A DNA stretch of 64,000 bases from Eledone cirrhosa (lineage: Eukaryota), in NCBI GenBank assembly GCA_964016885.1, contig OZ024743.1, positions 278,008,001 to 278,072,000 of the forward strand, read 5' to 3'. The number at the start of each line of letters is the position of its first letter. Positions within the stretch are counted from its first letter, which is position 1. The notes under the pieces are model-generated. The model saw only the letters and a program-made list of their open reading frames with translations. It had not been told where the DNA came from and searched no databases. Both the position numbers and the translations under genes were made by a program. This document shows, in pieces, positions 4,120 through 4,313 of this stretch.

Positions 4120-4313
4120 AACGAAGGAAATGTGGTAAGGAACCAGATGGACCATAACGCACCAAAGTACTCAATACTTAGGGTAGTAGAGTGGGTAATA
4201 GGAACGAGTAGGACCCCGACGGCTGAGCTCGAGCCGTTCCGACGGCTAATTCAGTCCAGAATTAGCCGTCGAAACGGCTTGGGCTCAGCCGTCGGGGTCC
4301 TACTCGTTCCTAT
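4120..4313. mobile_element. Family A ~190-bp (TA)n-embedded element ending in a long hairpin (4198-4313)
   Basis: Homologous copies at 22751, 32172, 38041, 63229; arms ataggaacgagtaggaccccgacgg.../...ccgtcggggtcctactcgttcctat. Confidence 0.9.

What the first reader, a model, noticed from the sequence alone, without database searches (positions are those of the whole stretch)
4120..4313. Family A: a perfect hairpin built from a half-hammerhead, with arms that covary inside each copy
Seen in sequence: the right arm reads stem II' - GAAA - cggct(tgagctc)agccg - TC - ggggtc, which is an HHR 3' half with a GTC site. Where CTGANGA should be there is instead its exact reverse complement. Each copy's right arm mirrors its own left-arm variants: gagtagg/cctactc (4198), gagtggg/cccactc (32250), aagtatg/catactt (38120). 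The hairpin loops differ between copies, but four copies end at the same cctat-(AT)n. Inference: either the hairpin is re-synthesised by fold-back at stem II during each insertion, or a core-less ribozyme derivative spreads as a unit (possible trans-cleavage substrate or dsRNA source).
Basis: partly seen in the sequence, partly recalled or inferred. Interest (0 to 1): 0.75.

Follow-up and report, generated by a model that had tools for sequence, protein, structure and literature searches.

The report
Half-ribozyme stubs of a Penelope retrotransposon
This mirror-image insert is one of over ten thousand short stubs of a Penelope-type jumping gene whose longer copies carry the whole hammerhead motif; each stub likely forms when both cut DNA strands copy the gene's RNA back to its likely capped start, which is predicted to lie inside the ribozyme and would explain the missing core.

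Summary
The 194-bp insert is real, but its hairpin is not perfect (3 arm mismatches). It is the smallest form of a known layout: an inverted 5'-truncated pLTR plus a one-sided tail (78 nt) of a Penelope-like retrotransposon in (TA)n. The parent exists in this genome: RT plus GIY-YIG with Hydra-clade motifs and a hammerhead with a U3-A8 core (6,823 core matches; 11,818 exact short palindromes). Arms match within copies (100 of 126 share a haplotype; 24.5 shuffled). Fold-back at stem II is not supported: junctions lie in the 37-39-nt loop II, and either arm can be longer (42 vs 35). Arms pile up at one base, behind a non-parental G (109 vs 9; control 6 of 50) that sits on either arm (19 vs 14). 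Most likely both target strands prime reverse transcription at two fixed sites, run to the capped RNA start inside loop II, and are end-joined. No RNA data were available. This scan reported twin priming, cap-G and twin hairpins before on other DNA; the start inside the ribozyme was not in the notes I saw.

The parts
4120..4313 (.). Whole insertion: head-to-head stub of a Hydra-type Penelope-like element in (TA)n
   Evidence: same two outer ends in most of 30 best genomic copies
4120..4197 (-). 78-nt tail (sequence that follows the pLTR in the element's 5' leader); its far end is the distal copying start
   Evidence: tail length 78; continues into leader and ORF in L113, L087, L088, L246
4169..4192 (-). 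Predicted small bulged hairpin beginning 5 nt after the proximal copying start; a hairpin of the same shape begins 5 nt after the distal start in longer copies
   Evidence: weak by energy alone (z -0.6 to -2.1)
4198..4252 (-). Tailed arm: pLTR 3' part with hammerhead 3' half, 5' end 12 nt upstream of GAAA
4253..4313 (+). Tail-less inverted arm: starts at the A of AGTCC (inferred transcription start, 18 nt upstream of GAAA), ends at the pLTR end cctat
   Evidence: 7 of the 15 joints shown land at 4253
4263..4298 (+). Hammerhead 3' half: stem II 3' strand, GAAA, stem III with palindromic loop, GTC site (predicted cut after 4293), stem I 3' strand
   Evidence: full motif in parent L108:7523-7616; activity untested
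32172..32347 (.). Sister stub, arms identical, short junction
38041..38239 (.). Sister stub of the second subtype, 4 arm mismatches
63229..63417 (.). Sister stub, 4-bp deletion in the tail-less arm
22750..22915 (.). Stub of an older subfamily, internal deletion in one arm
7741..7867 (.). Decayed stub, about 70% identity
60901..60929 (-). 29-bp fragment of one arm

Best explanation
The insert is a head-to-head stub of the end repeat (pLTR) of a Penelope-like retrotransposon with Hydra-clade protein motifs, and it likely forms anew at each insertion when both cut strands of a (TA)n target prime reverse transcription at two fixed sites 78 nt apart, run to the likely capped 5' end of the RNA inside hammerhead loop II, and are end-joined. 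Shown by sequence: parent element, full hammerhead motif in long copies, two fixed 3' ends, one tail per pair, arm matching, junction positions, extra G. Inferred: transcription start, cap copying, priming from both strands, usually one RNA for both arms, end joining with trimming, and a positioning role for the two small hairpins. The stubs lack the catalytic core because the template RNA would never have contained it; they are likely dead-on-arrival products.
For: Parent: RT and GIY-YIG frames directly upstream of the same arm and tail in L104, L105, L106, L109, L110, L112, L113; L113 is full length. 6,823 matches to the 5' half with core and 11,818 exact short palindromes, controls 0. 38 of 53 hits in 100 evenly spaced 10-kb stretches end within 2 nt of position 0 or +78; 35 of 53 5' ends fall at -38 to -69, none at -70 to -141, 10 further up. 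One tail per pair in 130 of 134, 48 of 49 in the set not selected for tails. Arms: 4.5% within vs 11.1% between copies, 100 of 126 same haplotype vs 24.5 shuffled. Tail-less arm longer in 42, tailed in 35, equal in 23 of 100. In one subtype, a single base between two arms that both end at AGTCC is G/C in 109 and the parent-templated T/A in 9; one base further in, G/C in 6 of the first 50 of 93; parents of that subtype have T there in 31 of 32 and never G. The G lies on the tailed arm in 19 and on the tail-less arm in 14 of 33 classifiable among 40 fetched. An extra G marks cap copying in L1 (PMC11702581, passage). A related PLE protein cuts and extends both strands and starts at two internal sites flanking the tail, using uncut RNA (PMC11167929). 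Same-shaped hairpin 5 nt after each start.
Against: No RNA evidence for the start site or the cap. Many arms stop 1-7 nt short of the site and some appear to pass it (strict extents 11-21; chance matches to the other arm inflate these), so trimming has to be assumed. Arm extents include chance microhomology and the pattern sets require both arms to pass stem II'. A few pairs have arms from different haplotypes (L262, L354) and L033 joins this arm to another family's body, so one RNA is not always the source. The tail is about twice the published 30-40 bp and both starts share TAT with the target, whereas PMC11167929 reports initiation without homology. The two hairpins are weak by energy. Clade assignment rests on motifs, not a tree; Pfam support is weak.
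Confidence: 0.7

Rival explanations
1. Same dual priming, but the stop in loop II is a structural pause or an RNA processing site, and the G is a terminal-transferase addition rather than a cap copy.
For: The stop follows directly on stem II'; stops are spread over about 10 nt; G/C spacers also occur one base in (6 of 50); no RNA data.
Against: The G is strongly tied to one position (109 of 118 vs 6 of 50, Fisher p 7e-25). TTAGTY is kept at this spot in an older subfamily whose loop II is otherwise different (L219, L225, L093) and resembles the insect initiator (recalled motif). D. virilis Penelope has a mapped internal promoter (PMC2377424, passages).
Confidence: 0.13
2. Fold-back self-priming: one cDNA is made from the tail, folds on itself and copies itself (first reader; self-priming also proposed in PMC3846280).
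For: Explains arm matching and one tail per pair; 15 of 126 centres are perfectly palindromic; short overlaps are common.
Against: Predicts that the tail-less arm never reaches further than the tailed arm and never carries the extra G; it is longer in 42 of 100, by 3 nt or more in 30, and carries the G in 14 of 33. Copy 4120 itself has the longer tail-less arm. Junctions are not at the parent's stem II. Discordant arms exist.
Confidence: 0.09
3. A core-less hairpin element spreads as a unit (SINE- or MITE-like master copies), possibly as a trans-cleavage substrate or dsRNA source.
For: Fixed outer ends, very high copy number, some recurrent centres (7 of 126 identical). Non-autonomous PLE derivatives are known (bioRxiv 10.64898/2026.07.22.740005, part 1 of 5 read).
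Against: 101 different centres in 126 pairs; one identical centre occurs on at least five outer-arm haplotypes and in both orientations to the tail; one-arm changes are mostly G>A and C>T (104 of 203), as expected for decay after insertion; none of the 29 closest copies shares two of the query's three asymmetries (read by eye).
Confidence: 0.04
4. Stubs are collapsed remains of longer inverted insertions, or were symmetrised after insertion by conversion.
For: Long head-to-head copies exist (L104, L109, L110, L112); one copy, L339, has 7 rare changes mirrored in both arms.
Against: Deletion would not add a G at one fixed site nor leave a gap in sizes between -70 and -141; rare changes are mostly one-armed (203 vs 27).
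Confidence: 0.04

Closest known systems
Hydra clade of C-terminal EN+ Penelope-like elements (Craig et al. 2021, PMC8557442; e.g. Hydra-1_Obim, Penelope-13_HM)
   Same: RT then GIY-YIG; RW[K/R], DKT, CxCX5C, CxxC and CxH motifs, no CCHH; (TA)n targets; hammerhead at the 3' end; an inverted 5'-truncated copy is noted for Penelope-13_HM.
   Different: Different hammerhead from Hydra-1_Obim: U3-A8 core, 37-39-nt loop II, 5-bp stem III with a palindromic loop; about 3.2-3.4 kb against generally under 3 kb; two 14-16-nt motifs of this family had 0 hits in the held supplement text.
PLE insertion unit with inverted pLTR and one-sided tail (Pen2a_Av, PMC3846280; Fig. 2 legend of PMC8557442)
   Same: Head-to-head truncated copy, tail on one end only, palindrome at the junction.
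   Different: Tail 78 nt instead of 30-40; the minimal form without any ORF is the commonest; self-priming was proposed there, while the data here favour two primed strands.
Poseidon of Anolis (PAc) in vitro (Frangieh et al. 2024, PMC11167929)
   Same: Two internal initiation sites flanking the tail, both strands extended, AT-rich target, uncut RNA as template.
   Different: Other clade; that paper (parts 1-2 of 4 read) does not derive the inverted repeat from it and reports no homology at initiation, while both sites here share TAT with the target.
PLE hammerheads, including the U3-A8 variant of Schistosoma Cercyon (Cervera and de la Pena 2014, PMC4209133)
   Same: Type I motif in the pLTR, U3-A8 covariation, unpaired base at the 5' side of stem II, palindromic loop 3, pairs on opposite strands.
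   Different: Very long loop II that appears to hold the transcription start; longer stem III.
LINE-1 twin priming and cap-derived extra G (PMC11702581, passages)
   Same: Second reverse transcription primed from the other target end; extra G at complete 5' ends.
   Different: In L1 the two pieces are adjacent parts of the RNA; here both arms cover the same 60 nt and start at two fixed sites.
Metazoan non-LTR retrozymes (bioRxiv 10.64898/2026.07.22.740005)
   Same: Short, non-coding, pLTR-related, hammerhead-related.
   Different: Retrozymes are tandem direct repeats with complete hammerheads; these stubs are inverted and core-less.

Membership tests
EN+ Penelope-like element | Single ORF with RT and C-terminal GIY-YIG in the parent | tested here: met
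   Frames in L104-L113; FDI, YRDD, YIGLT motifs; 143 homologues, best 54%. Pfam weak: GIY-YIG E 0.069, RVT_1 E 1.1e-5 for one of 6 homologues scanned. All copies read are frameshifted or truncated.
EN+ Penelope-like element | pLTRs with partial tandem or inverted 5' copy and one-sided tail | tested here: met
   L113 layout; one tail in 130 of 134 pairs; tail 78 nt, longer than published
EN+ Penelope-like element | Target-site duplication | not testable with these tools
   Insertions lie in (TA)n, where a duplication cannot be told
Hydra clade | DKT in place of DKG; RWK motif | tested here: met
   DKT; RWR in L110, one conservative change
Hydra clade | No CCHH; CxCX5C linker; CxxC and CxH around the conserved E and N | tested here: met
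   One Cys between VIY and YIG; CxCX5C in L104 and L110, broken in L109; CNLC and CKH
Hydra clade | Insertion into (TA)n | tested here: met
   Flanks
Hydra clade | Phylogenetic grouping with named Hydra RTs | not tested
   Named Hydra proteins were not available as session sequences
Type I hammerhead ribozyme (parent copies) | Core boxes and three stems in order, GUC site | tested here: met
   L108:7523-7616; in 67 arms position 7 takes all four bases while 4, 6, 8, 9 are invariant (part of these loci were picked by the core pattern); compensatory pair in stem II of an older subfamily in 3 loci
Type I hammerhead ribozyme (parent copies) | Active fold favoured, Rfam match | tested here: inconclusive
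   Hammerhead fold -19.8 to -22.0 vs minimum -24.1 kcal/mol, z -0.25; no Rfam hit; 16 of 67 arms have C3 opposite A8
Type I hammerhead ribozyme (parent copies) | Self-cleavage | not testable with these tools
   Needs an assay
Hammerhead ribozyme (the stub itself) | CUGANGA/UUGANAA core present | tested here: not met
   Both arms stop 12 and 18 nt upstream of GAAA; the core begins about 62 nt upstream in parents
Non-LTR retrozyme | Tandem direct units each with a complete hammerhead | tested here: not met
   Inverted and core-less
MITE or other unit-propagating foldback element | Copies inherit one fixed centre and terminal inverted repeats at both ends | tested here: not met
   101 centres in 126 pairs; one end has the tail

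The most novel reading that the evidence does not exclude
The long loop II of this hammerhead holds the element's transcription start, so the mRNA begins with only the substrate half of the ribozyme and can be cut only if a core half from the 3' pLTR or a read-through RNA pairs in: a split-ribozyme switch. A dimeric reverse transcriptase, placed by two matching hairpins, reads that one capped RNA twice, once from each target strand, which would be the general origin of PLE inverted ends.
Probability: 0.25. Interest if true: 0.7.

Novelty: new member of a known kind. Interest (0 to 1): 0.42.

Why it matters
The object is ordinary retroelement debris, but its number makes it a large natural experiment on an open point: PMC8557442 names the formation of PLE inverted repeats as unresolved, and PMC3846280 proposed self-priming. 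The symmetric arm lengths, the one-tail rule and the extra G on either arm argue for priming from both target strands and predict a transcription start to the base, which 5' RACE can test. A start inside loop II would also explain how a hammerhead-bearing element keeps its mRNA uncut. More than ten thousand near-perfect 50-60-bp hairpins could feed editing or small-RNA pathways when transcribed, but that is untested.

Tried and rejected
CTGANGA-core search: 59 matches; the 20 read were chance juxtapositions or other PLE families; the real core is YTGANAA. The ATG in the tail is not the main ORF start: it closes after 13 codons in L087/L088 and the ORF begins about 93 nt later in L113. L052 joins the tail to an RT of another type and is not the parent. 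Rfam found no hammerhead in the parent; the 150 of 444 rows shown for the window were almost all microRNA models on simple repeats or hairpins, all below the gathering score. Pfam and PDB gave little. Cleaved RNA as template: 692 copies have one arm starting near the cut site; in the first 100 about 14 start exactly there, many explainable by G overlap, so no clear peak (by eye). A-to-I editing of the template: 0 of 27 mirrored rare changes are A>G. Expression: no RNA holder listed. One run of unknown kind laid 19,396 contigs on the stretch; it may be the assembly's own sample and no piece spans the palindrome, so it is not independent support. The repeat finder was swamped by (TA)n. The loose junction analysis overstated overlaps and was replaced.

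Full report
Observation. The window holds the element at 4120-4313 between (TA)n runs: 78 non-palindromic bases (4120-4197) and a palindrome (4198-4313) that folds at -129 kcal/mol, z -16. Near-full copies lie at 32172, 38041 and 63229, older or partial ones at 22750, 7741 and 60901. The hairpin is not perfect: 3 mismatches in copy 4198, 4 in 38119, a 4-bp deletion in 63307.

Abundance. G000 is 3.0 Gb. An exact pattern for the palindrome centre matches 11,818 places, control 0. In 100 evenly spaced 10-kb stretches (80 on the four largest contigs) there were 53 hits, about 37 insertion sites by eye, unevenly spread; this suggests on the order of 100,000 sites of all sizes (rough extrapolation).

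The parent. Coordinates below count from the arm end (0). Following the arm upstream in longer copies gives a complete type I hammerhead motif: stem I, a UUGANAA core, a G-C pair with a small internal loop, a 6-bp stem II (CGGCUA/UAGCCG), a 37-39-nt loop II, GAAA, a 5-bp stem III with the palindromic loop GAGCUC, and GUC (L108:7523-7616). The 5' half with core matches 6,823 places, control 0. In 67 core-bearing arms position 7 takes all four bases while 4, 6, 8 and 9 do not vary; 16 have C3 opposite A8; part of these loci were picked by the core pattern. An older subfamily has a compensatory pair in stem II in 3 loci. The U3-A8 variant is described for Schistosoma PLEs (PMC4209133, parts 1-2 of 4 read). 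Against activity: the hammerhead fold is 2-4 kcal/mol above the minimum fold and Rfam has no hit. Upstream lie RT and GIY-YIG frames (L104-L113); L113 runs from a 5' pLTR through tail, leader and ORF to a tail-less 3' pLTR. The motifs RWR, DKT, CxCX5C, CxxC, CxH and the lack of CCHH match the Hydra clade as defined in PMC8557442 (section 11, passages and supplement part 2 of 59 read), as does (TA)n targeting. The listed octopus member has a different hammerhead and two motifs of this family are absent from the held supplement text. No tree was built; Pfam and PDB add little; 143 homologues were found. That the host is a cephalopod is my guess from repeat content and is not tested.

The layout is known. 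An inverted 5'-truncated copy next to the pLTR and a tail on one end only are standard for these elements (PMC8557442, PMC3846280, passages). The finding is that unit with nothing between the arms. 38 of 53 sampled hits end within 2 nt of 0 or +78. 130 of 134 head-to-head pairs have exactly one tail, 48 of 49 in the set not selected for tails.

Arms match by copy. Of 134 pairs, 126 were used (4 with two or no tails and 4 gappy ones dropped): 4.5% difference within copies, 11.1% between; 100 share the five-column haplotype against 24.5 in shuffles (maximum 39 of 2000); 36 are identical. After dropping the 30 loci chosen by likeness to the query, 108 pairs show 27 mirrored rare changes (3 expected by chance; 7 in one copy, L339; most others mark minor subfamilies; none A>G) and 203 one-arm changes, half of them G>A or C>T. 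So the arms started alike and decayed separately. Exceptions: L262 and L354 have arms of different haplotypes, and L033 joins this arm to the body of another PLE family.

How the centre forms. Centres differ (101 in 126). 35 of 53 sampled 5' ends lie at -38 to -69, none at -70 to -141, 10 further up, 8 shorter (one hit is cut by a stretch edge); the core starts near -104, so stubs never reach it. Fold-back of a cDNA begun at the tail requires the tail-less arm to be the shorter. In 100 of the 126 pairs that passed the strict filter it is longer in 42, shorter in 35, equal in 23 (p 0.49), with 0-1 nt overlap the commonest; extents include chance overlap. In copy 4120 the tail-less arm starts at 4253 and the tailed arm at 4252, 18 and 12 nt upstream of GAAA.

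An extra G marks one site. Where both arms end at the A of AGTCC (-60) with one base between them, that base is G/C in 109 and the parent-templated T/A in 9 copies of one subtype (both subtypes by eye 29 vs 2 among the first 56 loci). One base further in, G/C occurs in 6 of the first 50 of 93. Parents of that subtype have T there in 31 of 32 and never G. Of the first 40 of the 109 copies, the G is on the tailed arm in 19 and on the tail-less arm in 14; 7 were not classified, most because deletions shifted the tail; they carry at least five outer-arm haplotypes. An extra G at complete 5' ends reflects the cap in L1 (PMC11702581, passage). The site reads TTAGTC, like the insect initiator (recalled), and TTAGTT stands at the same place in the older subfamily. 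D. virilis Penelope has an internal promoter (PMC2377424, passages). I infer a capped start inside loop II; no RNA run was listed to test it.

Two matching start signals. Earlier notes of this scan on the same genome pointed to small hairpins behind the copy ends. Here a 4-bp, 2-nt bulge, 4-bp hairpin begins 5 nt after position 0 and another 5 nt after +78; the first is fully paired in 199 of 231 tails over the six pairs scored, the second is seen in the 4 loci that run past the tail. Each is weak by energy. Both starts share TAT with the (TA)n target.

Mechanism. Most likely the endonuclease cuts both strands in (TA)n; each 3' end primes reverse transcription, one at 0 and one at +78; both run over the uncut GUC site to the capped end at -60, sometimes copying the cap; the two ends are trimmed and joined. 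PMC11167929 (parts 1-2 of 4) shows both strands extended, two internal starts flanking the tail, uncut RNA as template and a predicted dimer for another PLE. The one-tail rule and arm matching suggest one RNA per event in most cases. Long copies would come from read-through or tandem transcripts. Arms starting exactly at the cut site are rare and show no clear peak.

Novelty. Class, clade, hammerhead variant and layout are published. Searches for twin priming or cap-G in PLE insertions (listings only) and for this family showed no paper stating it; PMC13282606 (passages) does not mention Hydra or palindromes. The library is partial, and Repbase and Dfam were not searchable. This scan has noted twin priming, cap-G and the twin hairpins several times on other DNA (the sequence look-up was blank); those notes are unchecked and are not counted as support, and my twin-priming and cap tests were run before I saw them. 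In the summaries I saw, the start lay just before the hammerhead; here it would split it. Verdict: new member of a known kind, interest 0.42.

Noticed in passing
window 29935-30307: 373-bp palindrome (98%) with a CTGATGA...GAAA hammerhead-like motif on each strand next to (TA)n; looks like the same layout from another PLE family.
   Followed up: partly
window 32425-32589: Palindrome whose left arm holds a CTGATGA core with a long loop II while the right arm is cut inside that loop and has a short tail; another family with the same layout.
   Followed up: partly
window 3895-3990: Single hammerhead-like motif just left of the finding, similar to the 29935 family (by eye).
   Followed up: no
window 45339-45653 (-): GIY-YIG fragment 40% identical to the parent's endonuclease, a different PLE family.
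   Followed up: no
window 21845-22544, 6940-7589, 25471-25634, 33809-33986, 44083-44233, 380-536: Further long palindromes or inverted repeats; some recur elsewhere in the window.
   Followed up: no
L033:1-1600: This family's arm is joined head-to-head to the endonuclease end, hammerhead and tail of another PLE family: a possible two-template insertion or a nested insertion with deletion.
   Followed up: partly
L339: Both arms share 7 rare changes; either a decayed source copy was mobilised or the arms were homogenised later.
   Followed up: partly
L051, L053, L063, L069, L071: Centres filled with A and T runs, perhaps untemplated or slipped synthesis during joining.
   Followed up: no
window 4128-4155 (-); L087, L088: The tail holds a short upstream reading frame (13 codons where the continuation is seen) ahead of the main ORF.
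   Followed up: partly
window 4264-4279: Stem II' can pair with the 5' strand of stem III in a competing hairpin, the minimum-energy fold of both the half and the full motif; it could keep the ribozyme off.
   Followed up: partly
L052: Tail fused directly to an internal RT frame of a different PLE type.
   Followed up: partly
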